NCBI GenBank assembly: GCA_030427445.1
Contig: JAUIBQ010000003.1
Coordinates: 1,931-65,930 of the forward strand
Source: a bacterium
GTDB taxonomy: Bacteria > Patescibacteriota > Saccharimonadia > Saccharimonadales > SZUA-47
Length of the DNA stretch: 64,000 nucleotides
Reading direction: 5' to 3'
Both the position numbers and the translations under genes were made by a program. The notes below the pieces were generated by a model. That model ran no database searches, was not told the DNA's origin, and was given only the letters and a program-made list of their open reading frames with translations. Below are positions 1 through 13,901 of this stretch, one piece after another. Position 1 is the first letter of the stretch. Each line of letters opens with the position of its first letter.

Positions 1-1067
1 GAAATACCGCTTGCCGCCCAGTTATGCCTGTACAAACTACCCGGTAAAGGATTAATTTCATTAAAGTAAACAATCCCTGCCTTGGTATCAACGAGCATAT
101 CAATACGAGCAATACCTTCACATCCCAGTGCACGGTAAACCGTAACACCCACTTCCTGTGCAGAAGCGATAAGCTTTTCAGGTAATACTGCGGGGATCTT
201 ACTGTAGCCTTGGGCGCCGGTTTTTGCGCCCATTTTTTTGCCACTCTTACCTTGATTAAGGTACTTTGTATCAAAATCAAACACACCGTCTTCCTTAGAT
301 AACGGTTGCTCTACACTACCGAGGGTTAACGATTCGTCCGCATTACCCACAATAGGTAGGGTTACTTCGACGAGATTCTGCACCGCTTCTTCTACTAGAA
401 CTTTGTCATCGTAACGAAGCGCTACTTCAATTGCGTTTATTAATTCTCGCTCATTTTCAACCCGTGAAATACCTATGCTTGAGCCTAGTGACGAGGGCTT
501 TACGAACAGTGGGTAAGATAGTTTTTTCTGAATCTCCTTTAGCCACGTGTCGTGATGTTGCGCGTATTCACGTGCTGTAAAAAACTGCATAGTTGGTGTG
601 AGCACCTTATGGGCTTCAGCGAGAAGTTTTGAGGTTACCTTATCCATAGCGATTGCTGATGCTTCCAAACCGCATCCAACGTAAGGTACGTTAGCCATTT
701 CAAGCAACCCCATCAATGACCCATCTTCACCGTACGTGCCGTGAGTAGCTGGAAACACAATATCTATCTTCTGATATTTCTTCCTTCCGGCAAACTGACT
801 AGACTTCACCAACGTTAATCCTTCGCCAAACTGAAGTTGTACCTGCGGTGCTTTATCACAAAAATCGTTAATCTCACCACTTTGATATAACGAAATGTCT
901 TTTAACTTCTCATCCCAAAACCATCGACCACTTTTATCAATATATATTGGCTCTACTTTATAATTTCCAGTGGCTTCTAGTGGCTTAATGACTGCTGAGA
1001 TTGCTGTGATGATTGATATATCGTGTTCAGCAGAACGACTGCCAAAAATAACCGCTATCTTTTTCAT
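1..1067 (-). CDS. ddl: D-alanine--D-alanine ligase (ATP-grasp); C-terminus runs off the window edge
   Basis: Not in the ORF track because it is open at the window edge. My reverse-strand translation from the ATG at 1067-1065 reads MKKIAVIFGSRSAEHDISIITA...FPATHGTYGEDGSLMGLLEMANVPYVGCG...LFVKPSSLGSSIGISRV. These are typical Ddl N-terminal and central motifs. Confidence 0.85.
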   Translation of the reverse strand, partial: MKKIAVIFGSRSAEHDISIITAISAVIKPLEATGNYKVEPIYIDKSGRWFWDEKLKDISLYQSGEINDFCDKAPQVQLQFGEGLTLVKSSQFAGRKKYQKIDIVFPATHGTYGEDGSLMGLLEMANVPYVGCGLEASAIAMDKVTSKLLAEAHKVLTPTMQFFTAREYAQHHDTWLKEIQKKLSYPLFVKPSSLGSSIGISRVENERELINAIEVALRYDDKVLVEEAVQNLVEVTLPIVGNADESLTLGSVEQPLSKEDGVFDFDTKYLNQGKSGKKMGAKTGAQGYSKIPAVLPEKLIASAQEVGVTVYRALGCEGIARIDMLVDTKAGIVYFNEINPLPGSLYRHNWAASGI

Positions 1068-1072
1068 GTTTC

Positions 1073-1110
1073 AATTGTAGCATACAATTATTGATGGTTA
1101 ATTGTATGCT
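1073..1110 (-). other. Mutually exclusive hairpins between the metzincin stop and the ddl start
   Basis: AGCATACAATT (1079-1089) is the perfect reverse complement of AATTGTATGCT (1100-1110), with a 10-nt loop. AATTGTA at 1073-1079 can instead pair with TACAATT at 1083-1089, with a 3-nt loop. The element lies 6 nt from the ddl ATG, which has no obvious SD. Confidence 0.4.
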
Positions 1111-1681
1111 AAGCATAATGAGTTCTTGAAAGGTCGGCCGCACACCCATCACAATGTCCTGCCTGAGTTGGGTTATCGCTGATGGCATTAAAAGCTCTTT
1201 GCATATCTACGACGTTATTAACTTCTTTCATCACGCAATTATCTACTGCGCAATGGCCCGCAAAAGACGAAGAATTATCATAGCGTTCCGAGCTAGGTTC
1301 TACTAGTCCGAAACTATGTCCTATTTCATGAACTGTAGTGGCAAATAATTGCTCTGGACTAAGCCTGTAGCTTGAGACAATGACCTGGCCTTGGCCAGTT
1401 TTAGACATGCCAAATAGAAAATTAACACTTCTGTGTCCTAAATCTTCCCCTGTTGCCACAATCGATAAAGCACCATTTTGCCAAGATTTAAGACCGTCGA
1501 TAATATTTGCATCAACTTGAGTCGTCTTTCCTAGCTTAGGGTAGTGGTCCACTTCTATCCATTTATCACAAACCAGACCACCTACGCCTGGCAAAACTAA
1601 GCTTGACGCTCTTACAGCAAGCTCTATTGCATCCACATAATCTTCTGGTAACTGAGAATCCCTGAACAAAAGTGTGTTCAT
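1109..1681 (-). CDS. Archaemetzincin-like zinc metalloprotease (peptidase M54-like)
   Basis: 190-aa ORF. HEIGHSFGL...HCAVDNCVM...CDGC matches the HExxHxxG...CxxxxCxM...CxxC archaemetzincin zinc signature, with an insertion after the Gly. Confidence 0.65.
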   Translation of the reverse strand: MNTLLFRDSQLPEDYVDAIELAVRASSLVLPGVGGLVCDKWIEVDHYPKLGKTTQVDANIIDGLKSWQNGALSIVATGEDLGHRSVNFLFGMSKTGQGQVIVSSYRLSPEQLFATTVHEIGHSFGLVEPSSERYDNSSSFAGHCAVDNCVMKEVNNVVDMQRAFNAISDNPTQAGHCDGCAADLSRTHYA

Positions 1682-1715
1682 ATCTATATATTATAACATA
1701 TATAAATCATATTTG

Positions 1716-3140
1716 TCAATGGTAGTTATCTGTCCAGTCATTTTGCATGAGGACAAGATCCCCGACTGCTAACCGATGCTCAAGACCTTCGTAATAACTC
1801 TTAGGGTTTAACTCAACTGACAGATCTCCTTTAAATCCTGCTTCAATAAGTGATTTTTCAATTATGCTCCGAACTGAATTATCCATAAGTACCACCTTAT
1901 CTGGTTTAGCTTTCGTTATAAGCTGGCCTATTTCTTCGTGGACACTCTGAGTCTTGTCTCCTTGCTCGACCAGGCCAGGTGTAACATACGTTTTACGCTC
2001 TGCAGGAAGAACTTCAAGTAATCGTAAACCTGCACGTACACCTTCAAGGTTACCGTTATATGTATCATCAATAACCCAAGCACCACTGATAAGTCTAGGT
2101 TGCATGCGATGTTCGTGTGGGGTTACACCCTTTAGAGCTTCTCTAATATCATCCCAGCCCATACTCGCAATCTCGTTAGCTAAGACAGAACTAAGCACCG
2201 CAACAGACACTAGGTGCTCGCCAATTAGACCCATTTGAAGTGTCTGTTTCTGCGCTCCTTTAGATATCGTAAATACGGTACCTTCAAGTGAGACAGAGAT
2301 TGAATCTATCTTCCAACCCAGAACTTCCTCGTCTGTGTATTTGTTCGATTCAATCTCAAGCATGTCTGCAACGAACTGACTAGCATAAATATTTTCACTT
2401 TTTACAAACTCTTGAATGCTCTTCAAGTCTTCTTTTAACAACTTTTCCGACTTGTAACTATCTAAGTGATTTGGAGCATATCCAGTTAGAATCGCAATAT
2501 CTGGGCTCACCAACCTAGATATACTAGAGATATCGCCAGGCTTAAACTCACCAAACTCTACAATCAAAAAATCATCGCTATTTTTAACGGTGTTAAGTAT
2601 CCACCTCGCATGACTCACGAGGACATTTTGATTCCCCGGAGTTGCAGATACAGGATGTTTGTACGACAGAATTGTGGTCAAAATCTCTTTCGTGGTTGTC
2701 TTGCCATAGCTTCCAAGGATAGCGATTTTCTTTGCTCTTGAATTTTTAAATCTTTCTGTAGCTCTCAGAATAAGACGCTTCCTGCCGAAGTGGTTGAGTG
2801 CATGACCTACTGTCAAAGCTGCAACGGTTATTGCAACCATCGCAAAAGGCACAAGCACAAATACACTCAAACTTAAAACATATAACGATTTTAGGGCTAA
2901 AAATCCAATGAGAAGAGCGGCACACAGATAGATGGTGTAGAGAACGGCTACCAGCAGCACAGCTCGCGTGGTGTAGTCCAGACGTTTACGTCTTTGCACA
3001 TTCAATAAACTCGGCAATCTCCTAAGCCATTTTAATAGTTCCCGAGGCTCATATTCTACTTGTTGAGCCATGTACACTATCATGGTAGGCGATGCTGGGC
3101 TATAAAAAGATAGCCAGAACCGAAGCAGTGTAGCCATCAT
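1716..3140 (-). CDS. Mur ligase family protein, MurF-like catalytic core fused to an N-terminal polytopic membrane domain
   Basis: 474-aa ORF. The first ~110 aa are hydrophobic helices. They are followed by the P-loop GSYGKTTTKE, then EFGEFKPGDI, PDIAILTGYAPNHL and IDDTYNGN. The ATG overlaps the upstream stop (ATGA at 3137-3140). Confidence 0.7.
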   Translation of the reverse strand: MMATLLRFWLSFYSPASPTMIVYMAQQVEYEPRELLKWLRRLPSLLNVQRRKRLDYTTRAVLLVAVLYTIYLCAALLIGFLALKSLYVLSLSVFVLVPFAMVAITVAALTVGHALNHFGRKRLILRATERFKNSRAKKIAILGSYGKTTTKEILTTILSYKHPVSATPGNQNVLVSHARWILNTVKNSDDFLIVEFGEFKPGDISSISRLVSPDIAILTGYAPNHLDSYKSEKLLKEDLKSIQEFVKSENIYASQFVADMLEIESNKYTDEEVLGWKIDSISVSLEGTVFTISKGAQKQTLQMGLIGEHLVSVAVLSSVLANEIASMGWDDIREALKGVTPHEHRMQPRLISGAWVIDDTYNGNLEGVRAGLRLLEVLPAERKTYVTPGLVEQGDKTQSVHEEIGQLITKAKPDKVVLMDNSVRSIIEKSLIEAGFKGDLSVELNPKSYYEGLEHRLAVGDLVLMQNDWTDNYH

Positions 3141-3907
3141 CGCAAAAACGTCCGTATTTCACTAAGTACTTTTTCTGGCTGGTCGACATGCAAGAAATGA
3201 CCAGCGTCAGGAATTATTTTTAAACGAGACTTTTTAATTGCACTAGCAAAATATTCTCCGTACGCTACTGGTGTTGCCGTATCTTTATCACCGTAGATGA
3301 GTATCGTGTCTTGGCGTATAGCTGTCGCTTGACTTCTAATATCTTCAGAAACAATCTTCTCAAAGGTGCTTCGCAAATCTTCTGCGACAAATACATCCGA
3401 CCCTATTGCCTTGTATGCACGCCTTTTCATTGTTTGTTGCACATGATGAGGCATAAGACGAGCTACTTGCTTAGCAGCCTTAGCAACCAGCCTGAGTGCT
3501 AGATTTCGCTTCGATGACGGATTACGCACACCTGAACTAGCCAATAAGACAAGTTTTTCACTCTTGAGTACGCCTCCAGAAGTGCCTTTCATTGCAATAG
3601 CGCCTCCGTTTGAATGCCCAATAAATGCATAGACCTCATTGACTTCAATTTTATTTAAAAATTCCCGAACAAACTCAGCATAGCGAGCTAAGTCGAAGGC
3701 CTCGCTCGGCTTCTGAGTTCCACCAAATCCCGGTAAATCAATCGATATACACCGGTATTTATCTTTAAGCGCGTCGCTAATAAAATTAAATGTCTCTTTA
3801 CTGTCGCCCCAGCCATGCAAAAAAACAAGCGCTTCTCCATCTCCAGACGAAGAATAACTCGTCAAAATATCTTGAACAACGACTGTTTTCATCATGCAGT
3901 GGTCCAA
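3137..3907 (-). CDS. Alpha/beta-fold hydrolase
   Basis: 256-aa ORF with HGWGDS, a GHSNGG nucleophile elbow (GxSxG) and a C-terminal DAGHF. It overlaps both flanking Mur-ligase genes (16 nt and 4 nt). Confidence 0.75.
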   Translation of the reverse strand: MDHCMMKTVVVQDILTSYSSSGDGEALVFLHGWGDSKETFNFISDALKDKYRCISIDLPGFGGTQKPSEAFDLARYAEFVREFLNKIEVNEVYAFIGHSNGGAIAMKGTSGGVLKSEKLVLLASSGVRNPSSKRNLALRLVAKAAKQVARLMPHHVQQTMKRRAYKAIGSDVFVAEDLRSTFEKIVSEDIRSQATAIRQDTILIYGDKDTATPVAYGEYFASAIKKSRLKIIPDAGHFLHVDQPEKVLSEIRTFLR

Positions 3908-5118
3908 AAAGTGCCTTTGATTTGCTTCCAGCGTTTTGACTGTCGTACGAGCGAGCTGGCATCTTCGGGATTTTTAAGAAGAAGTTTGACTGCCTCTTCA
4001 GCAAACACACCGTTTTGCGAGCCTTTACATAAAATAATAGTTTTATCCGATCGTGCATACGTCGCAAGTAGACTTTCTATAGCCTCAGCTGCTTCTTTGG
4101 GAGTGTCGCTGCGCACTACGTTACACCCATTTTTTTCTGCGCTCTTTGCAGTATGCGTGTTAGCTTCCTTGCCGAGCGTAACCACAAGATCAAGCTTCGT
4201 TTTATTACAGTACTCACCAATTTCTCTGTGCATTGAAGCGCTCGAACCACCCAACTCGTTCATACTGCCAAGCATGACTATTCGGTGAGTTGCTGGCACA
4301 GAATATAAATACTGGATTGCCGCGATGACTGCTTCGGGCGATGAGTTATACGTGTCATCAACCAAAGTAGACCCGTTTTTACCCTCATACTGGCGCATTC
4401 TCCCAGGAGGAGACTGAAATGTGATAACACCGTTTTTAACTTGCCCCATGTCTAATCCTTCGTGTTTCGCAATCCATAGTACAGCACCGAGTGCATCGTA
4501 GCTATGTTCACCGATGACTTTTAGCTCCTCATGCAGAATACCGTTCTCCGTAATAGACGAGGAATCGTAGTGAAACAGCTCTTTATTTTTTACAAGTTTT
4601 AAGTACGCACTATCTACCATCTTTTTGTTTACTAATACAGTGTCCGAGAACTGCTCAACTGCTAATTCTTCTCGAGCAACGGCATCGATCGTTTTAAAGT
4701 TCTCCATATGCTCAGGCGCGACGGCGGTCACCACTGCGATATCTGGTTGTAGCCATGCAAACTGCTCGATATCTCCCGGTCTATCTGTCCCAAGCTCCAG
4801 AACAAAATAATCAAAGTGATTCTTGGAGAAATAACTCATATATAATGACTTAAGAAGTAGCACCGCCCACGAAAACGGGTTCTTGGCATTCTTTGGTAAA
4901 TCATATCCAAGCACCGAAACAGCAACACCAAGATTAGTGTTATAGTTGTGTCTCGTCGAGCGAACCGAAACATTTGCTGACTTTAATACATGCGTAATAG
5001 CTTTTGTAGTGGACGTTTTACCTATTGAACCGGTTACTACGATGATTTTGGCAGGTGACACACGACGAAGATACTTTTGAGCTAATTTGCGAAGTACTAG
5101 TTCAAAAAATCCTGTCAT
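3892..5118 (-). CDS. murF: UDP-N-acetylmuramoyl-tripeptide--D-alanyl-D-alanine ligase-like (MurF-type Mur ligase, short N-terminus)
   Basis: 408-aa ORF with VTGSIGKTSTTKAI, LELGTDRPGDI, VTAVAPEHMENF, VDDTYNSSPEA and GSMNELG motifs. Confidence 0.7.
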   Translation of the reverse strand: MTGFFELVLRKLAQKYLRRVSPAKIIVVTGSIGKTSTTKAITHVLKSANVSVRSTRHNYNTNLGVAVSVLGYDLPKNAKNPFSWAVLLLKSLYMSYFSKNHFDYFVLELGTDRPGDIEQFAWLQPDIAVVTAVAPEHMENFKTIDAVAREELAVEQFSDTVLVNKKMVDSAYLKLVKNKELFHYDSSSITENGILHEELKVIGEHSYDALGAVLWIAKHEGLDMGQVKNGVITFQSPPGRMRQYEGKNGSTLVDDTYNSSPEAVIAAIQYLYSVPATHRIVMLGSMNELGGSSASMHREIGEYCNKTKLDLVVTLGKEANTHTAKSAEKNGCNVVRSDTPKEAAEAIESLLATYARSDKTIILCKGSQNGVFAEEAVKLLLKNPEDASSLVRQSKRWKQIKGTFWTTA

Positions 5119-5146
5119 TCTACCCTTCCCTTAGGATGTTTTCGTG

Positions 5147-6067
5147 TTAATTCGATTCAGGAGATAATCGTTGCTGGACTGCCTGCTGTAGCTCCTGGTA
5201 TGTGACATCTGTAGTTGGCTCTTCAGGACGTACTACGACTCCATAATTAGAATACTCTTCAACGATAGTTCCGTAGGCGACTTTTGTTATGACGCTATCT
5301 TTTGTACGAATCTCCACAGATGCACTCAACGTCCCTTCGCCAGCAGATGCTGGGTCAAGACCTAAGTCAGGGTATCCAGATGCTGTGAGAGCTATATTTA
5401 ACGCTTCTAGGTAAGGTCTGAGGGAGATGATGACAGGTATTTGTACAACTCCATCTTGTGTTAGAGCGTTATTTGCTTGAACTGTATACGCCTCTTTAAG
5501 TTTGCTTAGTACTTCAGCACGAACAGAGGAGTTGAGGTTCGCTATAGGTATAACAGAAACTAGACCACTCGCATACTGTTGTTGGTAGTTTTCAAGATTT
5601 TCAGATGGCGTCTCCTGAACTGCCCACTGGTCTATATACTCTCCCAACGACGTGCCTTCAGAAGATTCATAGTCTGTGTATCTTATGTAGTTGCTACCAT
5701 CGTAATACTGCTGAGCTTCTGTGCTAATCGTTAAATTAAAAGACTGAGCTGGGTTGTTCACTTCGGTCAAATAGTCTACGTGTATCAAACGTTCACCGCT
5801 CAAATATATACGCTGCATGTTGATGTCTTGTTGACCACTTGCACCTGATCGACTCGTCTTTACGACGCTCTGCGTACGAAGTGACGTTTCAACTGCAGAC
5901 CAGAATCGTCGCTCATTAAGCTTTTCTGCCTCATTGTAATCTGTTACATACCAAAATGATCCAAGACCAAGTAGTACGAGCACGGCAAGACTTGTAAAGC
6001 CGATCGACCACTTTTTCAGAGATATTGAGGTAAGTTTCTTATAAATTCTTTTAGGTAATTTCTTCAT
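5147..6067 (-). CDS. Hypothetical membrane-anchored extracytoplasmic protein
   Basis: 306-aa ORF. The basic N-terminus is followed by one hydrophobic helix (WSIGFTSLAVLVLLGLGSFWYV). No recognisable motif. It is the first gene of the wall-gene string. Confidence 0.6.
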   Translation of the reverse strand: MKKLPKRIYKKLTSISLKKWSIGFTSLAVLVLLGLGSFWYVTDYNEAEKLNERRFWSAVETSLRTQSVVKTSRSGASGQQDINMQRIYLSGERLIHVDYLTEVNNPAQSFNLTISTEAQQYYDGSNYIRYTDYESSEGTSLGEYIDQWAVQETPSENLENYQQQYASGLVSVIPIANLNSSVRAEVLSKLKEAYTVQANNALTQDGVVQIPVIISLRPYLEALNIALTASGYPDLGLDPASAGEGTLSASVEIRTKDSVITKVAYGTIVEEYSNYGVVVRPEEPTTDVTYQELQQAVQQRLSPESN

Positions 6068-6127: not shown

Positions 6128-6204
6128 GGGGCATTGGCGCAGTTGGCTAGCGCGCTTCCATGGCATGGAAGAGGTCAAGGGTTCAAATCCCTTATGCTCC
6201 ACCA
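6128..6204 (+). tRNA. tRNA-Ala (anticodon GGC)
   Basis: Cloverleaf read by eye: acceptor GGGGCAT/ATGCTCC with the G3:U70 alanine identity pair, D arm GCGC/GCGC, anticodon arm CTTCC-ATGGCAT-GGAAG, T arm AAGGG-TTCAAAT-CCCTT, encoded CCA. Confidence 0.9.
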
Positions 6205-6207: not shown

Positions 6208-7302
6208 TTATTCTTGGACGGTGACTGTGTCTCCGATTCCGAAACCTAAATCAACAAGCTGATTCATGTTCGCCGGAGAAACTCTCACACAAGCGTGAGA
6301 GGGACGAGAAACATCACCTTGATGAATCGCAATCCCGCCATCGAAGAAACGTGCATTACCCATTGATCCAGCAGGTCCACCTAGAGTCTGAGAAGCATAG
6401 TCTGGTCCTTCAGTTCTGTACACTTGGTTCGTTCCAACTCTTGTATGAGCTCTACCTTTGTACAGATATCCGTCTTTTTCATAGGTATATATTCGGTCAT
6501 CTCCATGGGATATTCTTGTCTGCATGACAAGCTCACCGCCGTCGTAAGCCTTCAACGTGTCGTCACTTTTATCGACAATCACCTTGTCTATATCTACATC
6601 CTTATCCTCAACCGATATAACAGGTGCTTCCTTCTGAACTCCAAGAGCTGTTAACGTAACACTTCCTGCCAAACAATCAGACTCCCCAAATTCTCTTTGC
6701 TGAAACTCAGCAAACCCGAGGAGCGTTCTAGGGCCTATGATACCGTTTGCATTTCCGACATTTACCCCATTGCTGTTAAGTGCTTCCTGGACAGCTATCG
6801 CTTCAGTTCCATTATCTAGTAATAAGTCACCGTCAGAACCTGGGAGAACATCTGCAGCCCAAGTAGTTAGGCGTATTTCTTCACAAGCCTCAGTAGCATT
6901 TACAGATGCCGATTGCTCGACCTTAAGCTGGTCACTTTCACCAGCAAATGCATCGATCCCTTGCGCTTTTTCAGCTGCTAGTTGCGTAATTGCCCCTGCG
7001 TAGCCACATATCCTTGTGTTTGCATCTAGAGCACCGATAACTTTCAAATCTTGTTGTGCACGATAGACATGCTCTTGTTCGTACTGAGAGCTTACTTTAC
7101 CGTCAACTGTGATGCCTGGGTATCCTGCATCGACAAGCTCTTGTTCACTTGCTCGACTCACATTTTGCCCAACCTCAAACACTTCACATCCTTCAGGAAG
7201 AATTTTCGATGCATCATATTCGGCACCCACGTCTGAAGCGGCCATGCCATATGTAGCAGATGCTACTGCAGCCATTGTTGCTAGTTTGTTGAAATTTTTC
7301 AA
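6208..7302 (-). CDS. L,D-transpeptidase (YkuD domain) with peptidoglycan-binding repeats
   Basis: The C-terminal IHQGDVSRPSHACVRV is a YkuD-type catalytic His...Cys motif. The track ORF starts at 7338, but that ATG lies upstream of a strong -10. AGGAG (7313-7309) plus 6 nt plus TTG (7302-7300) gives MKNFNKLATMAAVASA, a signal-peptide-like N-terminus. Confidence 0.8.
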   Translation of the reverse strand: MKNFNKLATMAAVASATYGMAASDVGAEYDASKILPEGCEVFEVGQNVSRASEQELVDAGYPGITVDGKVSSQYEQEHVYRAQQDLKVIGALDANTRICGYAGAITQLAAEKAQGIDAFAGESDQLKVEQSASVNATEACEEIRLTTWAADVLPGSDGDLLLDNGTEAIAVQEALNSNGVNVGNANGIIGPRTLLGFAEFQQREFGESDCLAGSVTLTALGVQKEAPVISVEDKDVDIDKVIVDKSDDTLKAYDGGELVMQTRISHGDDRIYTYEKDGYLYKGRAHTRVGTNQVYRTEGPDYASQTLGGPAGSMGNARFFDGGIAIHQGDVSRPSHACVRVSPANMNQLVDLGFGIGDTVTVQE

Positions 7303-7328
7303 AATAAACTCCTGCCTATTATCTCTAT

Positions 7329-7357
7329 ATATTATCATACTATTTATATTTTGTCAA
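7329..7357 (-). promoter_or_regulatory. Sigma70-type promoter for the L,D-transpeptidase gene
   Basis: On the minus strand: TTGACA (7357-7352), a 17-nt spacer, then TAATAT (7334-7329). Confidence 0.55.
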
Positions 7358-7501: not shown

Positions 7502-8044
7502 ATGCTTAGTAGAATGTCAAGATTCCTACAGTTTCAAGGATTTAGCCCTGCTAAGATATATGCAATGAATAAAAATCCGAATTTCTTAGCTGGCCGAGCA
7601 GTTGCATCTGTTGTTATACGGCGCTACGCTGGAAGTTTTACAATTCTTTTCGTCTCAATTAGTTTTGTAGGACTTGTAGTCACACTACTACTAGCCACAA
7701 TCTTCTCAGAGTGGTGGGCATTACTGATGGTGCTGTTTGTCCCACTACTAAGTATAAGTGGGCTACTTTACGTGGTCGTACGATTCATCTCATCGCGCAC
7801 AGCACCAAGAACACTAAGCAAGTCCGAACGAAAACAAACGCAAGAGTTTGTGAATGATGTACAGTACACCTACATTACTGCAAGAGCTATCAAAAGTTCG
7901 CCCACTGGAATTGGGCTTGCAGCTGCACTTGCGTATCTCACTGGTGGGAGGAATAAAGCTGTCAGATCCGTGATGAGTCCGATTGAGAGTTCAAAAGGAT
8001 TGAAAGAGAAGTTTGCAGACTTAGTAGAGCTTTTCTCACAGTAG
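7502..8044 (+). CDS. Hypothetical membrane protein
   Basis: 180-aa ORF with two to three hydrophobic helices. The real start is more likely the MNKNPNF methionine at 7565. Confidence 0.55.
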   Translation: MLSRMSRFLQFQGFSPAKIYAMNKNPNFLAGRAVASVVIRRYAGSFTILFVSISFVGLVVTLLLATIFSEWWALLMVLFVPLLSISGLLYVVVRFISSRTAPRTLSKSERKQTQEFVNDVQYTYITARAIKSSPTGIGLAAALAYLTGGRNKAVRSVMSPIESSKGLKEKFADLVELFSQ

Positions 8045-8593
8045 GGGCAGAACTGAAGGTGGGACCAGCTCAGCGACAGAAAGTCCCTGCTCATGTCGAG
8101 TCCTCACTTCAGTAGAGCTAGTAGTGAGCTGATCCACCTCTAGTATCTGAATATTATTGCCGTGGTCTTGTAGCTCATATCCAGGACGTTCAACAACCAA
8201 TAATGGCAAGTTTTCACGCAACCAATCCCCTCGCTCCCACTCGTGCATCGTATTTACACTGTCGCTACCGAATATCCATGTAAATGTAGCCTGAGGATTG
8301 TCTTCAGCCAGTCTTTCATAAGTAAGAAAGGTCTGTGACATCTCAGTATTTTTTAGTTCGACGTCGCATACCTGAGTTGTCGCCGTTGTGCTGAGACTAG
8401 CCAGCAATGCATGTGCGTAAGAGAGACGTTTTTCTACAGAAACTCCTATCTTTTTATCGTACCGTTCTCCACTTGGAAGTAACCAGAGCTCCATATCTCG
8501 CTCTACTGCATAGTCTGCGGCTGCTTGAGCAATTGCTTGATGAGCTACAGTAGGTGGATTAAATGCACCACCGTACACGATAACTTCTTTCAT
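8036..8593 (-). CDS. nadD: Nicotinate-nucleotide adenylyltransferase
   Basis: 185-aa ORF with N-terminal GGAFNPPTVAH (the GxFxPxHxxH nucleotidyltransferase motif) and NadD-like length. Adjacent NAD genes support the call. Confidence 0.85.
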   Translation of the reverse strand: MKEVIVYGGAFNPPTVAHQAIAQAAADYAVERDMELWLLPSGERYDKKIGVSVEKRLSYAHALLASLSTTATTQVCDVELKNTEMSQTFLTYERLAEDNPQATFTWIFGSDSVNTMHEWERGDWLRENLPLLVVERPGYELQDHGNNIQILEVDQLTTSSTEVRTRHEQGLSVAELVPPSVLPLL

Positions 8594-8612
8594 AGTGGTT
8601 GTCCTTTCTTAC

Positions 8613-8633
8613 TTAGTGTTCTATTGACACTAT
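8613..8633. promoter_or_regulatory. NrtR-type operator box 1 (TTAGTGT-N7-ACACTAt)
   Basis: The sequence is TTAGTGTTCTATTGACACTAT. It is part of a perfect 22-bp inverted repeat (8613-8634 versus 8647-8668) and contains a consensus TTGACA at 8624-8629. Confidence 0.65.
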
Positions 8634-8647
8634 ATATAATGTTTAGT

Positions 8648-8668
8648 ATAGTGTCAATAGAACACTAA
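8648..8668. promoter_or_regulatory. NrtR-type operator box 2 (exact inverted copy of box 1)
   Basis: ATAGTGTCAATAGAACACTAA is the reverse complement of box 1. It carries TATAGT (8647-8652), 17 nt from the plus-strand TTGACA, and the minus-strand TTGACA (8657-8652). Confidence 0.65.
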
Positions 8669-8681
8669 CTAGGAGAAAGCC

Positions 8682-10598
8682 ATGAATAAAAATTACGCTC
8701 CACAACAAGACCACATACGGGTTGCTGCCGCGACACCAGAAGTCAACATAAGTGATGTTGAAACAAACGTCAGTAGAATTAAACAGCTATACGAGCAAGC
8801 TGTAGAACAACATGTTACTCTTACTACCTTCCCCGAGATGTCTATCACCGGATATACGATTGGTGATCTAGTAATGCAAACCCAGCTTCTCGAAGATGCG
8901 CGCGAAGGTCTCGTTGAGCTCGCTGACCACACGAAAGATAAAAACGGTGCGATGATTGTAGGTCTGCCATTGCAGGTAAGAAATGGGCTGTACAACACCG
9001 CTGCCTTGCTTGCCGATGGAGAAGTAAAAGGAATCGTGCCAAAACTACATCTACCTACGTATCGTGAGTTTTATGAGAAACGCTGGTTTAGCGAAGGACC
9101 AGAAGAGCTTGAAGAAATTGAGGTTGGCGGTCAAACCACGACATTCGGTGCAAACCAGCTTTTTGAAGTAGCAGGTGCAGTTGTGGGTATAGAGATATGT
9201 GAAGATTTGTGGGTAGCGGACCAGAGAAACATACCACTCGTAACAAATGGAGCTGACATCATCGCCAACCCTTCTGCTTCTCCAGAAATCGCGACAAAAG
9301 GTGCATACCGTCGTGATCTCGTATCATTAACTGCCGGTAGAATCGCCGCTGGATATATCTACTCTGGAGCTGATCCAAGTGAATCAACAAGTGATATCGT
9401 CATGAGTGGTCACGCGCTTGTAAACGAGTTAGGTCGTCCGCTTGCAGAGCGCAAACCGTTCGATTTTAAAGCAGATCGGCTGACCATTGCTGACATTGAC
9501 CTCGGACATATTCGCTACCAACGAAGATTAGACAGCAACTTCCCTCAAGAAAGAAATTTTGCCACGCAAACGACTGAAGTCACCCGCACACAAGACACAC
9601 TGCAAAAAACAATTGACCCAGATGTGTTCATCCCGAAAGGCACGAGTGAAGAAGTCGCTGAGCGGCTTGAGGAAATCTTAACTATCCAAGCAGCTGGACT
9701 TAAAAAGCGCCTAGAGCACATCGGAGCTGAGCGAGTTATACTAGGCCTCTCAGGCGGGCTTGACTCTACACTTGCCCTACTGGTTGCTCTCAAGACAGCT
9801 CAGCTTATGGACAAACAGCCTGGCGACATCATAAAAACGCTTACCATGCCTGGTATGGCCAGTAGCGATCGCACTCAGAGCAACGCAACACGACTTGCCA
9901 ATAGTCTAGGCATCCCAAACGAAGAAATCCCTATCAGCTTCCTCGCGCAACATCAGCTTGAAGCCATCGGCCACGACACGCAAACACAAGATGTAACGTA
10001 CGAAAACACGCAAGCGCGACTTCGCACCAGCTTGCTGTTCAACAAGGGAAACAAAGAAAAAGGTATCGTGCTAGGCACGGGTGACTTGAGCGAAATCGCA
10101 ATCGGCTGGAGCACATACAATGGTGACCATATGTCAGGATACAACGTAAATGGGTCTATACCTAAAACACTCGTGCGACATCTTGTGGCTCATGGTCGAG
10201 ACACACTCGTCGATAACCAAGTGGCATATGAAATCTTGAGCGACGTACTGGATACGCCTATTTCTCCTGAGCTCACCAATGAAGTTGATGGTAATATCTC
10301 TCAGCATACTGAAGATATCATCGGACCTTACGAGCTTCACGATTTCTTCCTCTATTACCAAAATAGATGGGGTGATGCGCCCGCAAAAATTGCTTATCTA
10401 GCAAAGGCTGCGTTTGGTGAAAAATACGAAGCTGAGGAAATCGAAAAGTGGCTAGGAGTATTCACGACTCGCTACTACGGTAACCAATGGAAGCGCAACG
10501 CAATGCCAGACGGACCAAAAGTCGACACAGTCTCAATGAGCCCAAGGGGCGATTTACGGATGCCGGCAGATGCAACTCTCCCACAAAGCATGCTATAG
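8682..10598 (+). CDS. nadE: Glutamine-dependent NAD+ synthetase (CN-hydrolase domain plus NAD synthetase domain)
   Basis: 638-aa ORF. The N-terminal nitrilase-like domain contains ICEDLW. The C-terminal PP-loop is GLSGGLDS. AGGAG lies 7 nt upstream of the ATG. Confidence 0.9.
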   Translation: MNKNYAPQQDHIRVAAATPEVNISDVETNVSRIKQLYEQAVEQHVTLTTFPEMSITGYTIGDLVMQTQLLEDAREGLVELADHTKDKNGAMIVGLPLQVRNGLYNTAALLADGEVKGIVPKLHLPTYREFYEKRWFSEGPEELEEIEVGGQTTTFGANQLFEVAGAVVGIEICEDLWVADQRNIPLVTNGADIIANPSASPEIATKGAYRRDLVSLTAGRIAAGYIYSGADPSESTSDIVMSGHALVNELGRPLAERKPFDFKADRLTIADIDLGHIRYQRRLDSNFPQERNFATQTTEVTRTQDTLQKTIDPDVFIPKGTSEEVAERLEEILTIQAAGLKKRLEHIGAERVILGLSGGLDSTLALLVALKTAQLMDKQPGDIIKTLTMPGMASSDRTQSNATRLANSLGIPNEEIPISFLAQHQLEAIGHDTQTQDVTYENTQARLRTSLLFNKGNKEKGIVLGTGDLSEIAIGWSTYNGDHMSGYNVNGSIPKTLVRHLVAHGRDTLVDNQVAYEILSDVLDTPISPELTNEVDGNISQHTEDIIGPYELHDFFLYYQNRWGDAPAKIAYLAKAAFGEKYEAEEIEKWLGVFTTRYYGNQWKRNAMPDGPKVDTVSMSPRGDLRMPADATLPQSML

Positions 10599-11280
10599 TG
10601 ACACTATGTACGAAACCGAGTATGTTCCACCTACAGTAACTGTCGACGGTGTGATATTTCAAATCATTGACGGCGTACTGTATGTCGCATTGATTAAGCG
10701 TAGCGCTGAACCGTTTAAGGATAGCTGGGCTCTACCTGGAGGCTACAACGCCGCAGGTGAGACGACGCTTGAAGCACTTGAGCGCATCGTGAAACGTAAA
10801 GCTGGTATATCTATCAAAAAACAGACAAAGTTTGCTGAACAGCTATTTACGTTTGACACCGTAGCACGAGATCCACGAGGCCATGCGGTATCAGTAACCT
10901 ATATGGCTTGCGGGCTCGATATTTCTCCGCAGAACTCGTCAGAGCAAACACAGTTTTTCCCTGTAGATAACTTGCCAAAACTTGCGTATGACCACAAAGA
11001 TATCATTACGTACGCTCATGAACGACTTATTTCAAAGCTAAGCTACACAAATGTAGTTTACTCATTGTTGCCAGAGAAGTTCACGATGACAGCACTGCAG
11101 ACAGCCTACGAAGCAGTGTTCCAGCGGGAGCTAGATAAGAGAAACTTCCGGAAGAAGTTTGCACAACTCGACTTAATTAAAGAAACAGACGAGATGTTTA
11201 AAGAAGGTGCACACCGCCCTGCTCGGCTTTACACGTTTAAACAAAATACGCTCCAAACGCTTGTCAGGAGCTTTGACTAG
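10570..11280 (+). CDS. nrtR: NrtR-family transcriptional regulator (N-terminal Nudix-like domain plus C-terminal winged HTH)
   Basis: Nudix-fold N-terminal half (VIFQIIDGVLYVALIKR...WALPGGY). The C-terminal half, LQTAYEAVFQRELDKRNFRKKF...RPARLYTF, is typical of NrtR wHTH domains. The probable true start is the ATG at 10606 (MYETEY), 7 nt after the nadE stop. Confidence 0.75.
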   Translation: MQLSHKACYSDTMYETEYVPPTVTVDGVIFQIIDGVLYVALIKRSAEPFKDSWALPGGYNAAGETTLEALERIVKRKAGISIKKQTKFAEQLFTFDTVARDPRGHAVSVTYMACGLDISPQNSSEQTQFFPVDNLPKLAYDHKDIITYAHERLISKLSYTNVVYSLLPEKFTMTALQTAYEAVFQRELDKRNFRKKFAQLDLIKETDEMFKEGAHRPARLYTFKQNTLQTLVRSFD

Positions 11281-12244: not shown

Positions 12245-13116
12245 GCTGCCGTCTCCTCTCGAGTTAATGGTGGGCTTAGTTTTAATCTTTCACTAATATC
12301 TATGACATTAAGCAGTCGCTTCTCGTTGATATTCGTCCATTGCCCACCATTTGGAGATTGTTCAAGCTTCGGTGCCGTAATCATTCTCTCTTGTTTAACT
12401 AAATCTATATCATAAGGGTACACCATCCTCATCCAAGATAAATACTCTCGTACATCATTTGGGTTTTCGGGGTTACGCCTTGTGTACTCGATAATTGAAC
12501 AGTTTTTCATGTCTTGTGACTTATCGTTATCAAGTGCTACCAACTCTTCAGGAAGCATTCGCTCGATTAAATAACGATTTACAGATATAAATTCACCATG
12601 AGCAACAACGAGTACGCTCCCATCAGATACATCTCGGTGATACGTACCAAACGTATCACGTGCTCGCATCTGTACATCCGACAAGCTCTCAGCCCCATTC
12701 AACCCAGCGTAGAATGGGTTATTTTCTTGTGCGGTTACTGCAAACGGGAATTTTATTTTCCGTTCATCATACGGCGTCGCACCATACTCACCCCAATCGC
12801 GCTCACGAAAGCGATCATCGATATACCAATCTATCTTCGCTAGTCCACAAATATGTAATGCTGTCTCAGAAGCGCGCTGAAATGTAGATGCGTACCTCCT
12901 ATCAAAATCTTCAATCGGCATGATATTTTCACGAATCCACCTCCCCGCCATCTTTGCTTGCACGATACCCATAACTGAAAGTCGTTGCTCCCAGTCTGGT
13001 CGTGCATAGACTTCGTCATGATTTGGATGAATCTCGCCTTCTCGTTCTGCTTTATGTACGAGGTTCGCTTCAGACTCACCATGTCTCACGAATACTAATC
13101 TCTCTGGCATACTCAT
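12241..13116 (-). CDS. Histidine phosphatase family protein (phosphoglycerate-mutase-like)
   Basis: 291-aa ORF with LVFVRHGESEAN (the RHG catalytic motif) and a later VVAHGEF. It has a ~90-aa C-terminal extension with no recognisable motif. Confidence 0.7.
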   Translation of the reverse strand: MSMPERLVFVRHGESEANLVHKAEREGEIHPNHDEVYARPDWEQRLSVMGIVQAKMAGRWIRENIMPIEDFDRRYASTFQRASETALHICGLAKIDWYIDDRFRERDWGEYGATPYDERKIKFPFAVTAQENNPFYAGLNGAESLSDVQMRARDTFGTYHRDVSDGSVLVVAHGEFISVNRYLIERMLPEELVALDNDKSQDMKNCSIIEYTRRNPENPNDVREYLSWMRMVYPYDIDLVKQERMITAPKLEQSPNGGQWTNINEKRLLNVIDISERLKLSPPLTREETAA

Positions 13117-13150
13117 GATTTTTACTCCTTACATCCAATAAAATTTATAA

Positions 13151-13171: not shown

Positions 13172-13192
13172 GTAAGATATACCATATACTTG

Positions 13193-13900: not shown

Positions 13901-13901
13901 G

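What the first reader, a model, noticed from the sequence alone, without database searches (positions are those of the whole stretch)
1..6067. Coupled cell-wall cluster: two MurF-like ligases (one membrane-fused), an alpha/beta hydrolase, an archaemetzincin-like protease and ddl
Six co-directional genes are joined by overlaps or gaps of at most ~40 nt. They are a membrane protein, a MurF-like ligase (408 aa), an alpha/beta hydrolase, a second MurF-like ligase, an M54-type Zn protease, and ddl. In the second ligase the usual N-terminal domain is replaced by ~110 aa of transmembrane helices. Two MurF-type ligases bracketing a hydrolase and sitting next to a Zn peptidase and a D-Ala-D-Ala ligase recall stem-peptide remodelling logic (ligase, dipeptidase, alternative adding enzyme). 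However, the peptidase family is not VanX/VanY-like. A membrane-tethered Mur ligase is unusual, because Mur ligases are normally soluble cytoplasmic enzymes. It could act on a lipid-linked or other non-canonical acceptor.
Basis: partly seen in the sequence, partly recalled or inferred. Interest (0 to 1): 0.55.

Follow-up and report, generated by a model that had tools for sequence, protein, structure and literature searches.

The report
Membrane-anchored MurF paralogue cell-wall module
This stretch of a Saccharibacteria (TM7) genome holds the cell's ordinary, though truncated, D-Ala-D-Ala-adding enzyme next to a conserved and unstudied trio (an esterase-like hydrolase, a membrane-anchored copy of that enzyme and a special D-Ala-D-Ala ligase) whose role in wall synthesis is unknown.

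Summary
Six co-directional genes on the minus strand are joined by 4-nt overlaps or gaps of 28-41 nt. Both ligases are MurF-like by NCBIfam, PDB profile and fold.

- Ligase 1 (408 aa) also lacks the MurF N-terminal domain. Its family is the only MurF-like protein in the complete genome of Southlakia epibionticum, where it is essential. It is therefore the housekeeping MurF.
- The conserved unit is not "two ligases bracketing a hydrolase". It is alpha/beta hydrolase, then membrane-anchored ligase 2, then a long Ddl. This order is invariant in 80/80 species-representative Saccharibacteria genomes. The hydrolase and ligase 2 genes overlap in 77/83 loci. Ligase 1 is adjacent in only about 20%.
- The archaemetzincin-like gene is specific to this genome and has its own perfect promoter.

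Where the trio is missing at this locus, ligase 1 is followed directly by a short Ddl.

Ligase 2 has a conserved cytoplasmic N-module and a two-helix membrane hairpin (AlphaFold pLDDT 93), and all catalytic residues are intact. Most likely it is a membrane-tethered enzyme that adds the Ddl dipeptide, working with an esterase-type partner. Its acceptor is unknown. I found no description in the literature. I rate it a new variant of a known kind.

The parts
1..1067 (-). ddl, long DdlA-type D-Ala-D-Ala ligase. This is the 5' part only: 355 of 390 codons, and the gene runs off the window start. A class IV (D-amino-acid) aminotransferase gene follows outside the window.
   Evidence: Pfam Dala_Dala_lig_N and Dala_Dala_lig_C. 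Full gene and downstream Aminotran_4 seen in L004. Best PDB match is S. aureus Ddl, 176 bits, with the omega-loop K-Y kept and a Gly/Lys-rich insertion.
1109..1681 (-). Archaemetzincin-like Zn metalloprotease, 190 aa. Motifs present: HEIGHSFG, C-x4-C-x-M and C-x2-C, with insertions. It is a lineage-specific insertion and not part of the conserved module.
   Evidence: NCBIfam NF033823 scores 43.8 bits, below the 145 cutoff. PDB archaemetzincins at E = 8e-5. Found only in L004/L005, which are this same genome, among 86 loci.
1690..1719 (-). Sigma-70-type promoter-like site, TTGACA-18-TATAAT with an extended TG. It lies 9 nt upstream of the metzincin ATG and overlaps the ligase 2 stop codon.
   Evidence: 12/12 consensus match, the only perfect one in 8.7 kb. 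Sequence read.
1716..3140 (-). Ligase 2: membrane-anchored MurF paralogue, 474 aa. Domains 2 and 3 of MurF (residues about 135-474) follow a membrane module.
   Evidence: TIGR01143 murF scores 164.6 bits, below the 288.6 cutoff. PDB profile best match is E. coli MurF, 126 bits. AlphaFold pLDDT 93; Foldseek top matches are MurF 3zl8 and 4qf5. Catalytic residues are invariant.
2808..2969 (-). Two-helix transmembrane hairpin of ligase 2 (residues 58-111). The second helix runs on into the linker to the P-loop.
   Evidence: Hydropathy in 120/120 homologues. AlphaFold helices 58-83 and 87-133. K/R-rich flanks and a loop of 3.6 residues.
2970..3140 (-). Conserved cytoplasmic N-module of ligase 2 (residues 1-57; motif VYMxQQVEY...W...R; three short helices).
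   Evidence: Invariant Q26, W38, R51 and nearly invariant P18, Y23, M24, Q27-Y30. Found only at the N-termini of this family among 1.84 billion representatives. Also present on some ligase 1 orthologues.
3137..3895 (-). Alpha/beta hydrolase, 252 aa. Esterase/lipase-like serine hydrolase with a strongly cationic lid. Obligate neighbour of ligase 2.
   Evidence: Pfam Abhydrolase_1 and Abhydrolase_6. Invariant S95, D205 and H233. AlphaFold pLDDT 88; Foldseek top matches are esterases, PlaF, PhaZ and ABHD6. The lid has 12.7 K/R against 1.7 D/E. A 4-nt overlap with ligase 2 occurs in 58/83 loci.
3892..5118 (-). Ligase 1: housekeeping MurF of Saccharibacteria, 408 aa, lacking the N-terminal (domain 1) region.
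   Evidence: TIGR01143 scores 190.6 bits, below the 288.6 cutoff. PDB profile best match is S. pneumoniae MurF, 132 bits, aligned from MurF residue 85. The P-loop is at about residue 29 in the family. The domain 3 motif GxMxELG..S..H is kept. The orthologue type is essential in S. epibionticum.
5147..6067 (-). 306-aa protein with one N-terminal transmembrane segment and no known domain. First gene of the string.
   Evidence: No Pfam or NCBIfam family. Relatives lie upstream of the module in about 41 of 86 loci.
6128..6204 (+). tRNA-Ala(GGC) on the opposite strand. It marks the upstream boundary of the gene string.
   Evidence: ARAGORN.
6208..7338 (-). L,D-transpeptidase (PG_binding_1 and YkuD domains). 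Upstream cell-wall neighbour in a separate transcription unit.
   Evidence: Pfam. The same neighbour is seen in L003, L007 and L087.

Best explanation
The region is the D-Ala-D-Ala branch of peptidoglycan precursor synthesis in a Saccharibacterium. It is built from two layers.

Layer 1 is ligase 1, the housekeeping MurF. In this phylum it has lost the N-terminal domain.

Layer 2 is a conserved, translationally coupled accessory module: alpha/beta hydrolase, then ligase 2, then long Ddl, often followed by a D-amino-acid aminotransferase. Within it:
- Ligase 2 is an active ATP-dependent MurF-type amide ligase.
- A two-helix hairpin holds it at the cytoplasmic face of the membrane.
- It takes the dipeptide made by its dedicated Ddl.
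- It adds that dipeptide to a muramyl-peptide-type carboxylate acceptor at the membrane.
- It works as a pair with an esterase-type serine hydrolase that acts on the same substrate or product.

The archaemetzincin-like gene is an unrelated, separately transcribed insertion.

Shown: gene content, domain loss, membrane anchor, intact active sites, module conservation and coupling, and ligase 1 as the sole and essential MurF in a related complete genome.

Inferred: that ligase 2 uses D-Ala-D-Ala, that it acts at the membrane on a wall precursor, and that the hydrolase is a functional partner. The acceptor (UDP-linked, lipid-linked or host-derived) is not resolved.
For: Both ligases are MurF-type:
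- Their best NCBIfam family is murF: 190.6 and 164.6 bits, against at most 62 bits for any non-MurF family.
- Their best PDB profile matches are MurF: 132 and 126 bits, against about 50 bits or less for MurC, MurD and MurE.
- The ligase 2 model (pLDDT 93) matches MurF structures best.
- Every residue invariant in E. coli, S. pneumoniae and T. maritima MurF that belongs to the P-loop, the Mg/ATP site or domain 3 is invariant in both families. These are G107, S108, G110, K111, T112, N134, N136, E158, H188, R316, D331, Y333, N334, E363 (D/E in ligase 2), G365 and H372.

Ligase 1 is MurF:
- In the S. epibionticum ML1 tables the PF08245 proteins are MurC, MurD, MurE, one MurF with the domain starting at residue 29, MurT and FolC.
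- That MurF is scored essential.
- There is no Ddl, Aminotran_4 or YkuD domain in that genome (PMC10633639 supplements).
- In L087, L088 and L090, ligase 1 is followed within 0-4 nt by a short Ddl.

Module conservation:
- The order hydrolase, ligase 2, Ddl is found in 80/80 species-representative loci.
- The hydrolase and ligase 2 overlap by 4 nt in 58/83 loci and overlap at all in 77/83.
- The median gap from ligase 2 to ddl is about 47 nt.
- The Ddl linked to the module is always the long type, with a Gly/Lys-rich omega-loop insertion.

Membrane placement:
- The hairpin is present in 120/120 homologues, with positive-inside flanks.
- The hydrolase lid carries a net charge of about +11.

The metzincin is unique to this genome and has its own promoter.
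Against: - There is no biochemical or genetic datum on ligase 2 or the hydrolase.
- Ligase 2 departs from MurF in domain 3: PGLV(D/E)QG replaces GDMxELG, and YNG replaces YNA. The incoming substrate may therefore differ.
- The hydrolase looks like an esterase or lipase, not a peptidase, and no ester is known in the canonical pathway.
- Gene linkage to ddl could reflect operon history only.
- The module is dispensable in at least one Saccharibacterium (S. epibionticum). It is replaced by a plain short ddl at the same locus in others, so it is not required for making a wall.
- I could not check whether this window's own genome has a further MurF elsewhere.
Confidence: 0.5

Rival explanations
1. 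Plain isozyme. Ligase 2 catalyses exactly the MurF reaction (UDP-MurNAc-tripeptide plus D-Ala-D-Ala). It is only tethered to the membrane so that it can hand the product to MraY. The hydrolase is an unrelated housekeeping esterase that shares the operon.
For: - All MurF catalytic residues are kept.
- Linkage to ddl is constant.
- Some ligase 1 orthologues carry the same membrane module, so tethering as such is compatible with MurF function.
- Published work argues for channelling of Mur products to the membrane (PMC10214165).
Against: - It does not explain why two paralogues only 27% identical are both kept across the phylum.
- It does not explain why the hydrolase gene overlaps ligase 2 in 77/83 loci with an invariant catalytic triad.
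- It does not explain why domain 3 motifs differ from both MurF and ligase 1.
Confidence: 0.2
2. Van-like remodelling. The cluster builds an alternative stem-peptide terminus using an alternative dipeptide or depsipeptide. The Zn protease and/or the hydrolase removes the normal terminus.
For: - There are two MurF-type enzymes and a hydrolase next to a Ddl.
- An esterase could in principle cleave a D-Ala-D-Lac ester.
- The Ddl omega loop, which governs second-substrate choice, carries an unusual insertion.
Against: - The Zn protease is present in one genome only and is separately transcribed.
- The Ddl keeps the Lys-Tyr typical of D-Ala-D-Ala ligases. It scores higher against S. aureus Ddl (176 bits) than against VanA (166) or D-Ala:D-Lac ligase (141).
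- No VanH-type dehydrogenase, VanX or VanY lies in the neighbourhoods.
Confidence: 0.07
3. Non-peptidoglycan product. Ligase 2 works like PgsB/CapB or MurT. It is a domain-1-less Mur-family ligase at the membrane that modifies or polymerises something other than the UDP precursor. Candidates are a lipid II side-chain carboxylate, a teichoic-type polymer, a lipid or a poly-amino acid. The hydrolase acts as an acyl- or peptidyl-transferase, or as an esterase.
For: - Mur-family members that lack the N-terminal domain act on non-UDP substrates (established knowledge; PMC11915815).
- The membrane anchor parallels PgsB.
- Obligate pairing with a second enzyme parallels MurT-GatD.
- Cationic surfaces on the hydrolase lid and the Ddl loop suggest an anionic membrane or polymer partner.
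- A D-amino-acid aminotransferase is often next door.
Against: - Ligase 2 gives no hit to PgsB (TIGR04012) or MurT models, and only 15.7 bits to a cyanophycin synthetase model, while MurF models score 165 bits.
- It has a Mur_ligase_C domain, not DUF1727.
- No PgsC, PgsA or GatD genes are adjacent.
- Ligase 1 also lacks domain 1 yet is evidently MurF, so domain loss alone is not diagnostic in this phylum.
Confidence: 0.18
4. Swapped roles. Ligase 2 is the true MurF and ligase 1 does something else.
For: - ddl is always next to ligase 2 and only sometimes next to ligase 1.
- Ligase 2 keeps K115 and G133 of canonical MurF where ligase 1 does not.
Against: - S. epibionticum has only the ligase 1 type, and it is essential there.
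- In L087, L088 and L090, ligase 1 is directly coupled to a Ddl with no ligase 2 at the locus.
- Ligase 1 keeps the MurF domain 3 motif better.
Confidence: 0.05

Closest known systems
MurF (UDP-MurNAc-tripeptide:D-Ala-D-Ala ligase, EC 6.3.2.10; TIGR01143)
   Same: - The central ATPase domain and the C-terminal domain.
- All conserved catalytic and domain 3 residues.
- The best sequence, profile and fold matches are to MurF.
- The genes are linked to ddl.
   Different: - Neither paralogue has the N-terminal precursor-binding domain that defines the three-domain muramyl ligases.
- Both score below the family cutoff.
- The position of the carbamylated Lys202 is replaced: invariant Glu in ligase 1, invariant Asp one residue earlier in ligase 2.
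- Ligase 2 carries an N-module plus a transmembrane hairpin, and has altered domain 3 motifs.
MurT-GatD (lipid II isoglutaminyl synthase)
   Same: - It is a Mur-family ligase without domain 1.
- It acts at the membrane on a lipid-linked precursor.
- It depends on a partner enzyme encoded by the adjacent, co-translated gene.
   Different: - MurT has a DUF1727 C-terminal domain and a glutaminase partner, and it is soluble.
- Ligase 2 has Mur_ligase_C, an alpha/beta-hydrolase partner and a membrane anchor.
- Saccharibacteria have a separate MurT-GatD pair (SEML1_0702/0703).
PgsB/CapB (poly-gamma-glutamate synthase)
   Same: It is a membrane-associated Mur-family amide ligase that lacks the MurC-F type N-terminal domain.
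   Different: - Ligase 2 has no detectable similarity to the PgsB model.
- No PgsC or PgsA partners are present.
- Ligase 2 is clearly of MurF lineage.
Mpl/LdcA recycling route (murein peptide ligase plus L,D-carboxypeptidase, then MurF)
   Same: A hydrolase and an extra Mur ligase are used to rebuild a full stem peptide from salvaged pieces. This logic is attractive for an epibiont that depends on its host.
   Different: - Mpl is MurC-like and soluble.
- LdcA belongs to peptidase family S66, not the alpha/beta hydrolases.
- Nothing here shows that salvage occurs.
VanA/VanH/VanX-type clusters
   Same: A Ddl-family ligase is clustered with hydrolases that touch the stem-peptide terminus.
   Different: - There is no VanH, VanX or VanY.
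- The Ddl has the D-Ala-D-Ala-type omega-loop Tyr.
- The Zn protease is an archaemetzincin-like insertion found in one genome only.

Membership tests
MurF (TIGR01143 / EC 6.3.2.10) | Score above the curated family cutoff (288.6 bits) | tested here: not met
   Ligase 1 scores 190.6 bits and ligase 2 scores 164.6 bits. murF is still the best family for both.
MurF (TIGR01143 / EC 6.3.2.10) | [quoted passage not shown] | tested here: not met
   The ligase 1 P-loop is at residue 30 and its alignment to S. pneumoniae MurF starts at MurF residue 85. In ligase 2, residues 1-133 are three short helices plus a transmembrane hairpin. The defining feature is taken from PMC11915815 and PMC10214165.
MurF (TIGR01143 / EC 6.3.2.10) | Conserved P-loop, Mg/ATP residues and domain 3 residues (E. 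coli G107-T112, N134, N136, E158, H188, R316, D331, Y333, N334, E363, G365, H372) | tested here: met
   These residues are invariant in 63 ligase 1 and 61 ligase 2 sequences. E363 is D/E in ligase 2.
MurF (TIGR01143 / EC 6.3.2.10) | Carbamylated lysine (E. coli K202) | tested here: not met
   The aligned column is an invariant Glu (E151) in ligase 1. In ligase 2 it is Leu, with an invariant Asp (D238) one residue earlier. That K202 is the carbamylated residue is my own recollection of the literature; I did not check it here.
MurF (TIGR01143 / EC 6.3.2.10) | Adds D-Ala-D-Ala to UDP-MurNAc-tripeptide | not testable with these tools
   The only evidence is indirect. Ligase 1-type MurF is the sole MurF-like protein in S. 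epibionticum and is essential there. Ligase 1 is directly coupled to ddl in L087, L088 and L090.
MurT (lipid II isoglutaminyl synthase subunit) | C-terminal DUF1727 domain (PF08353) and an adjacent GatD glutaminase | tested here: not met
   Both ligases have PF02875, not PF08353. The MurT model gives 27 bits for ligase 1 and no hit for ligase 2. The neighbours are an alpha/beta hydrolase and ddl.
PgsB/CapB | Match to TIGR04012 and adjacent pgsC/pgsA | tested here: not met
   Ligase 2 gives no hit and ligase 1 gives 15 bits against a cutoff of 222.7. No such neighbours are present.
FPGS/FolC and cyanophycin synthetase | Best match to the folC or cphA models | tested here: not met
   folC gives 22 bits for ligase 1 only. 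The cyanophycin synthetase models give 27 and 22 bits for ligase 1 (TIGR02068, NF010623) and 15.7 bits for ligase 2 (NF010623 only). These compare with 165-191 bits for murF.
D-Ala-D-Ala ligase (Ddl) | Dala_Dala_lig_N and Dala_Dala_lig_C domains, and an omega-loop Lys-Tyr (Tyr216 type rather than the His or Phe of D-Ala-D-Lac ligases) | tested here: met
   Pfam E-values are 2e-42 and 2e-29. The K-Y aligns with S. aureus Ddl and is conserved in 74/76 module-linked Ddl sequences. The link between this residue and specificity is established knowledge; activity was not tested.
Archaemetzincin (MEROPS M54) | HEXXHXXGX3CX4CXMX17CXXC signature and a score above the family cutoff | tested here: inconclusive
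   HEIGHSFG, C-x4-C-x-M and C-x2-C are present. The spacers are 18 residues instead of 3, and 25 instead of 17 (read from the sequence). NF033823 scores 43.8 bits, below 145. The best PDB matches are archaemetzincins at E = 8e-5.
Van-type resistance/remodelling cluster | VanH-type dehydrogenase plus a VanX or VanY D,D-peptidase next to the ligase | tested here: not met
   None is found among the called genes of 11 annotated loci or the 83 loci screened for this cluster's gene families.

The most novel reading that the evidence does not exclude
The hydrolase, the hairpin-anchored ligase 2 and the Lys/Gly-loop Ddl form a membrane-bound machine. It completes or repairs stem peptides on a lipid-linked or host-derived muramyl-peptide, for example undecaprenyl-PP-MurNAc-tripeptide or a salvaged precursor from the actinobacterial host. 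This would be a MurF-type dipeptide addition that takes place after the UDP stage, or independently of it. No Mur ligase is known to do this.
Probability: 0.15. Interest if true: 0.8.

Novelty: new variant of a known kind. Interest (0 to 1): 0.6.

Why it matters
Mur ligases are textbook soluble, three-domain cytoplasmic enzymes and antibiotic targets.

Here a whole phylum of host-dependent, ultra-small bacteria runs its MurF step with an enzyme that lacks the precursor-binding domain. Many of its members also keep a second MurF paralogue. That paralogue is anchored in the membrane, is translationally coupled to an esterase and travels with its own unusual Ddl.

Working out the module's substrate would show several things:
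- how a MurF can work without domain 1;
- whether part of stem-peptide assembly can happen at the membrane;
- how epibionts that import wall precursors from their hosts finish or recycle them.

Across Saccharibacteria the locus appears in three states: module present, a short ddl instead, or nothing. This may be a readable marker of how much wall chemistry a lineage still performs itself.

Tried and rejected
- I searched the window for further Mur ligases with phmmer. None was found, so the murC-E question could not be answered from the window.
- The whole genome of the window's organism could not be retrieved. The look-up of the ligase 2 protein found no record. I used the published gene and Pfam tables of S. 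epibionticum as a proxy.
- I searched the ligase 2 N-module against 1.84 billion representatives, hoping to find it on other enzymes. There were only 42 hits, all at the N-termini of this family or of fragments, so this gave no functional clue.
- The structure and PDB searches of the hydrolase returned only generic esterases, lipases and C-C hydrolases. Peptidase, thioesterase and acyltransferase roles can be neither assigned nor excluded.
- A Foldseek search of AFDB50 for tethered Mur ligases outside the phylum was unavailable.
- Literature searches found no paper that mentions Mur ligases together with Saccharibacteria, CPR or a membrane anchor.
- I did not attempt a rooted phylogeny of ligase 1, ligase 2 and MurF. 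Cross-family HMM scores (about 110 bits) are no higher than the scores to PDB MurFs (126-132 bits), so the catalytic domains do not say whether the two are sister paralogues. Only the shared N-module suggests a common tethered ancestor.
- I rejected the idea that the transmembrane segment is a start-codon artefact, and the idea that the metzincin is part of the system.

Full report
**1. What is in the sequence**

Everything in the finding lies on the minus strand. Read 5' to 3', the genes are:

| Gene | Coordinates | Size and notes |
|---|---|---|
| Membrane protein | 6067..5147 | 306 aa, one N-terminal hydrophobic segment |
| Ligase 1 | 5118..3892 | 408 aa |
| Alpha/beta hydrolase | 3895..3137 | 252 aa |
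| Ligase 2 | 3140..1716 | 474 aa |
| Zn protease | 1681..1109 | 190 aa |
| ddl | 1067..1 | runs off the window |

The spacings are 28 nt, an ATGA overlap, another ATGA overlap, 34 nt and 41 nt.

The same DNA occurs on an 818-kb metagenomic scaffold (L004). It shows that ddl is 390 aa and is followed by a class IV, D-amino-acid-type aminotransferase.

Upstream, a tRNA-Ala gene on the opposite strand (6128..6204) separates the string from an L,D-transpeptidase gene (7338..6208).

The protease is archaemetzincin-like: it scores below the family cutoff, but its best PDB matches are archaemetzincins.

The closest relatives of all proteins come from Candidatus Saccharibacteria / Saccharimonadales. 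The rest of the window is ordinary Saccharibacteria housekeeping DNA and holds no further Mur ligase.

**2. Both ligases are MurF-type, and both lack domain 1**

- For both, the best NCBIfam model is murF. Scores are 190.6 and 164.6 bits against a cutoff of 288.6. Models of MurC, MurD and MurE, pseudomurein ligases, CfbE, MurT, FolC, CphA and PgsB score 62 bits or less.
- Family profiles built from 63 and 61 homologues hit PDB MurF chains best, at 132 and 126 bits. MurC, MurD and MurE follow at about 50 bits or less.
- The ligase 1 alignment to S. pneumoniae MurF begins at MurF residue 85. Its P-loop is at residue 30, and at about residue 29 in almost all of the 120 listed homologues. It therefore has no N-terminal domain.
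- Ligase 2 has 133 residues before the first strand of the ATPase domain. AlphaFold (pLDDT 93.3) models them as three short helices (2-39), then helix 58-83 and helix 87-133, the last running straight into the catalytic domain.
- The 55-117 stretch is strongly hydrophobic in 120/120 homologues.
- The flanks of the two helices hold about 5 and 6 Lys/Arg, and the connecting loop is about 3.6 residues with almost none. This gives an N-in/C-in hairpin with the catalytic domains in the cytoplasm.
- The soluble N-module has invariant Q26, W38 and R51 and a near-invariant VYMxQQVEY motif.
- Foldseek places the ligase 2 model nearest to T. maritima and A. baumannii MurF.
- The two paralogues are only 27% identical.

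**3. Both look catalytically competent, with a shared oddity**

I aligned both families with E. coli, S. pneumoniae and T. maritima MurF (sequences taken).

- Every residue invariant in the three MurFs that belongs to the P-loop, the NxN motif, the Mg-binding Glu158, His188, Arg316, the DxYN motif, the ELG motif or His372 is invariant in both families.
- The exception is Lys202. As I recall from the literature, this is the carbamylated lysine of MurD, MurE and MurF. I did not check that here. Ligase 1 has an invariant Glu at this column. Ligase 2 has an invariant Asp one position earlier.
- Ligase 1 keeps the MurF domain 3 signature G-x-M-x-E-L-G...S...H.
- Ligase 2 has P-G-L-V-(D/E)-Q-G...T...H, and YNG instead of YNA/S. 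Its pocket for the incoming substrate is related but not identical.

**4. Which one is the cell's MurF**

I could not retrieve the window's genome. The published gene, Pfam and Tn-seq tables for the complete genome of Southlakia epibionticum ML1 could be searched (PMC10633639 supplements). Six proteins there carry the Mur ligase middle domain:

| Protein | Locus tag | Notes |
|---|---|---|
| MurC | SEML1_0747 | has its N-terminal domain |
| MurD | SEML1_0230 | |
| MurE | SEML1_0049 | 403 aa; domain starts at residue 22, so it also lacks domain 1 |
| MurF | SEML1_0599 | 426 aa; domain starts at residue 29 (the ligase 1 architecture); next to leuS as in this window; scored essential |
| MurT | SEML1_0702 | with GatD |
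| FolC-like | SEML1_0359 | |

That genome has no ligase 2-like protein and no Ddl, Aminotran_4 or YkuD domain. A Saccharibacterium can therefore build its wall with the ligase 1 type as its only MurF.

Three further loci (L087, L088, L090) have ligase 1 followed within 0-4 nt by a short (300-305 aa) Ddl, with no hydrolase or ligase 2 at the locus.

I conclude that ligase 1 is the housekeeping MurF. That SEML1_0599 is an orthologue of ligase 1 rests on its architecture and synteny; I could not compare the sequences.

**5. The truly conserved unit**

A scan of one genome per species found hundreds of loci with relatives of ligase 2. The limit of 600 matched stretches was reached. The 80 best are full-length, 37-45% identical and almost all labelled Saccharibacteria.

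I called ORFs in these loci and classified them with HMMs built here.

- The order hydrolase, ligase 2, Ddl is present in every locus where the DNA extends far enough.
- The hydrolase stop and the ligase 2 start overlap by exactly 4 nt in 58 of 83 loci, and overlap at all in 77 of 83.
- ddl follows at a median of about 47 nt. Occasional inserted genes widen this gap to as much as 1.8 kb.
- Ligase 1 is adjacent in only 18 loci.
- The aminotransferase follows ddl in about a quarter of loci.
- The 306-aa membrane protein family lies upstream in about half.
- The metzincin occurs only in the two loci that come from this same organism.

In the window, the metzincin is preceded by the only perfect sigma-70-type promoter match in 8.7 kb: TTGACA-18-TATAAT with TG, at 1719..1690, 9 nt before the ATG. 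It is therefore an independently transcribed insertion between ligase 2 and ddl.

**6. Features that tie the trio together**

- The Ddl next to ligase 2 is always a long (379-418 aa) enzyme like S. aureus Ddl or DdlA. It keeps the omega-loop Lys-Tyr of D-Ala-D-Ala ligases. It scores higher against Ddl (176 bits) than against VanA (166) or D-Ala:D-Lac ligase (141).
- Its omega loop carries an 18-28 residue Gly/Lys-rich insertion in 74 of 76 loci. The short Ddl that pairs with ligase 1 has none.
- The hydrolase family (about 250 aa) has an invariant Ser95-Asp205-His233 triad and an HGW oxyanion motif.
- The hydrolase core is modelled confidently, and its nearest structures are generic esterases and lipases: PA hydrolase 3om8, the membrane phospholipase PlaF, aryl esterases, PhaZ and ABHD6.
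- The hydrolase lid is modelled with low confidence and carries about 12.7 Lys/Arg against 1.7 Asp/Glu.

A transmembrane hairpin, a cationic lid and a cationic loop together suggest an assembly at the anionic inner face of the membrane. This is inference.

**7. Evolution**

Seven ligase 1 orthologues have an N-terminal extension with two hydrophobic helices and a motif resembling the ligase 2 N-module. They clearly belong to the ligase 1 clade, scoring about 455 bits on the ligase 1 HMM against about 130 on the ligase 2 HMM. The ligase 2 N-module HMM hits one of them at E = 3e-14 and two more weakly.

The module is found nowhere else among 1.84 billion representative proteins. A tethered, domain-1-less MurF may thus be ancestral in this phylum, with the anchor later lost from ligase 1 in many lineages, including this one.

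The locus between ligA/ykuD and leuS exists in at least three states:
- ligase 1, hydrolase, ligase 2, long ddl, sometimes dat (this window, L001, L091);
- ligase 1, short ddl (L087, L088, L090);
- ligase 1 alone, with no ddl in the genome (S. epibionticum).

**8. Interpretation**

The best-supported reading has three parts:
- Ligase 1 is the ordinary, though truncated, MurF.
- The hydrolase, ligase 2 and long Ddl form an accessory functional module.
- Ligase 2 is an active, membrane-tethered MurF-type ligase that consumes the dipeptide of its own Ddl and works with an esterase-type partner.

The acceptor, and the bond handled by the hydrolase, remain unknown.

Rivals are a mere tethered isozyme, a non-peptidoglycan or lipid-stage function analogous to MurT or PgsB, a Van-like remodelling system, and swapped roles. 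The last two are poorly supported, as set out in the rival explanations section.

**9. Comparison with what is known, and novelty**

Published descriptions define MurC-F as soluble cytoplasmic enzymes with three domains, the N-terminal one binding the UDP-MurNAc precursor (PMC11915815, PMC10214165).

Neither paralogue meets that architecture or the curated MurF score cutoff, yet both are of MurF descent. Public records call ligase 2 a 'hypothetical protein', a 'Mur ligase family protein' or MurF.

Full-text searches found no paper dealing with Mur ligases in Saccharibacteria/CPR or with membrane-anchored Mur ligases.

I rate it a new variant of a known kind. It is widespread in one phylum, clearly under selection, and its biochemical role is open.

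Noticed in passing
window 6128..6204 (+): A tRNA-Ala(GGC) gene sits on the opposite strand between the L,D-transpeptidase gene and the 306-aa membrane protein gene. The gene string of the finding therefore starts a separate transcription unit.
   Followed up: yes
window 1690..1719 (-): A perfect sigma-70-type promoter match (TTGACA-18-TATAAT with TG) overlaps the ligase 2 stop codon. It lies only 9 nt before the metzincin ATG, which implies a nearly leaderless, independently transcribed gene.
   Followed up: partly
window 1..1067 (-); L004:14052-15224; 76 ddl ORFs in L001-L086: The Ddl linked to ligase 2 carries a conserved 18-28 residue Gly/Lys-rich insertion in the omega loop, just after the specificity-related Lys-Tyr. 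An example is KYMQGGKKGGKGK..GAQGYSQIPA. S. aureus Ddl has 8 residues at this point.
   Followed up: partly
L087:9206-10108, L088:9212-10129, L090:8211-9122: In Saccharibacteria loci that lack the hydrolase and ligase 2, ligase 1 is followed directly by a short DdlB-like Ddl (300-305 aa) without the loop insertion. This looks like a cassette-level alternative to the three-gene module at the same syntenic site.
   Followed up: partly
L038:4347-6026, L057:7587-9209, L060:2351-4030, L063:2445-4247, L073:7617-9245, L078:3350-4981, L084:7424-9166: These ligase 1 (MurF) orthologues carry an N-terminal extension of about 120-180 residues with two hydrophobic helices and a motif related to the ligase 2 N-module. 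In some lineages, therefore, both paralogues are membrane-anchored.
   Followed up: partly
S. epibionticum ML1 tables (PMC10633639 supplements): SEML1_0049, 0599: The annotated MurE (403 aa, Mur_ligase_M at 22-224) also lacks the N-terminal domain, while MurC and MurD keep theirs. The genome has no Ddl, Aminotran_4 or YkuD domain and no annotated racemase, so D-amino acids and D-Ala-D-Ala presumably come from the host.
   Followed up: partly
window 3892..5118 and 1716..3140 (-): At the column of E. coli MurF Lys202, ligase 1 has an invariant Glu. Ligase 2 has an invariant Asp one residue earlier. From memory, Lys202 is the carbamylated lysine, and the replacement resembles the way MurC substitutes a carboxylate.
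   Followed up: partly
window 3137..3895 (-), residues 120-170: The lid of the alpha/beta hydrolase is strongly cationic across the family (about 12.7 K/R against 1.7 D/E in 51 residues) and is modelled with low confidence. The rest of the protein is neutral to acidic.
   Followed up: partly
window 8036..15871: This stretch is an NAD salvage and turnover island: a NadD-like nucleotidyltransferase, NadE, an NrtR-like Nudix regulator, an ADP-ribosylglycohydrolase, a histidine phosphatase, a PncA-like isochorismatase, NAPRTase and a Nudix protein. It is absent from the otherwise syntenic ligA-to-ykuD stretch in L003 and L087.
   Followed up: no
window 34024..36075, 53909..55594, 42279..43976 (-): Large ORFs of 683, 561, 253 and 299 aa have no Pfam family.
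   Followed up: no
window 32366..33106, 51081..52049, 52452..53468 (-): Further cell-wall enzymes lie elsewhere in the window: an SLT_3 lysozyme-like protein, a LysM-LysM-CHAP amidase/peptidase and a YceG/MltG-like protein.
   Followed up: no
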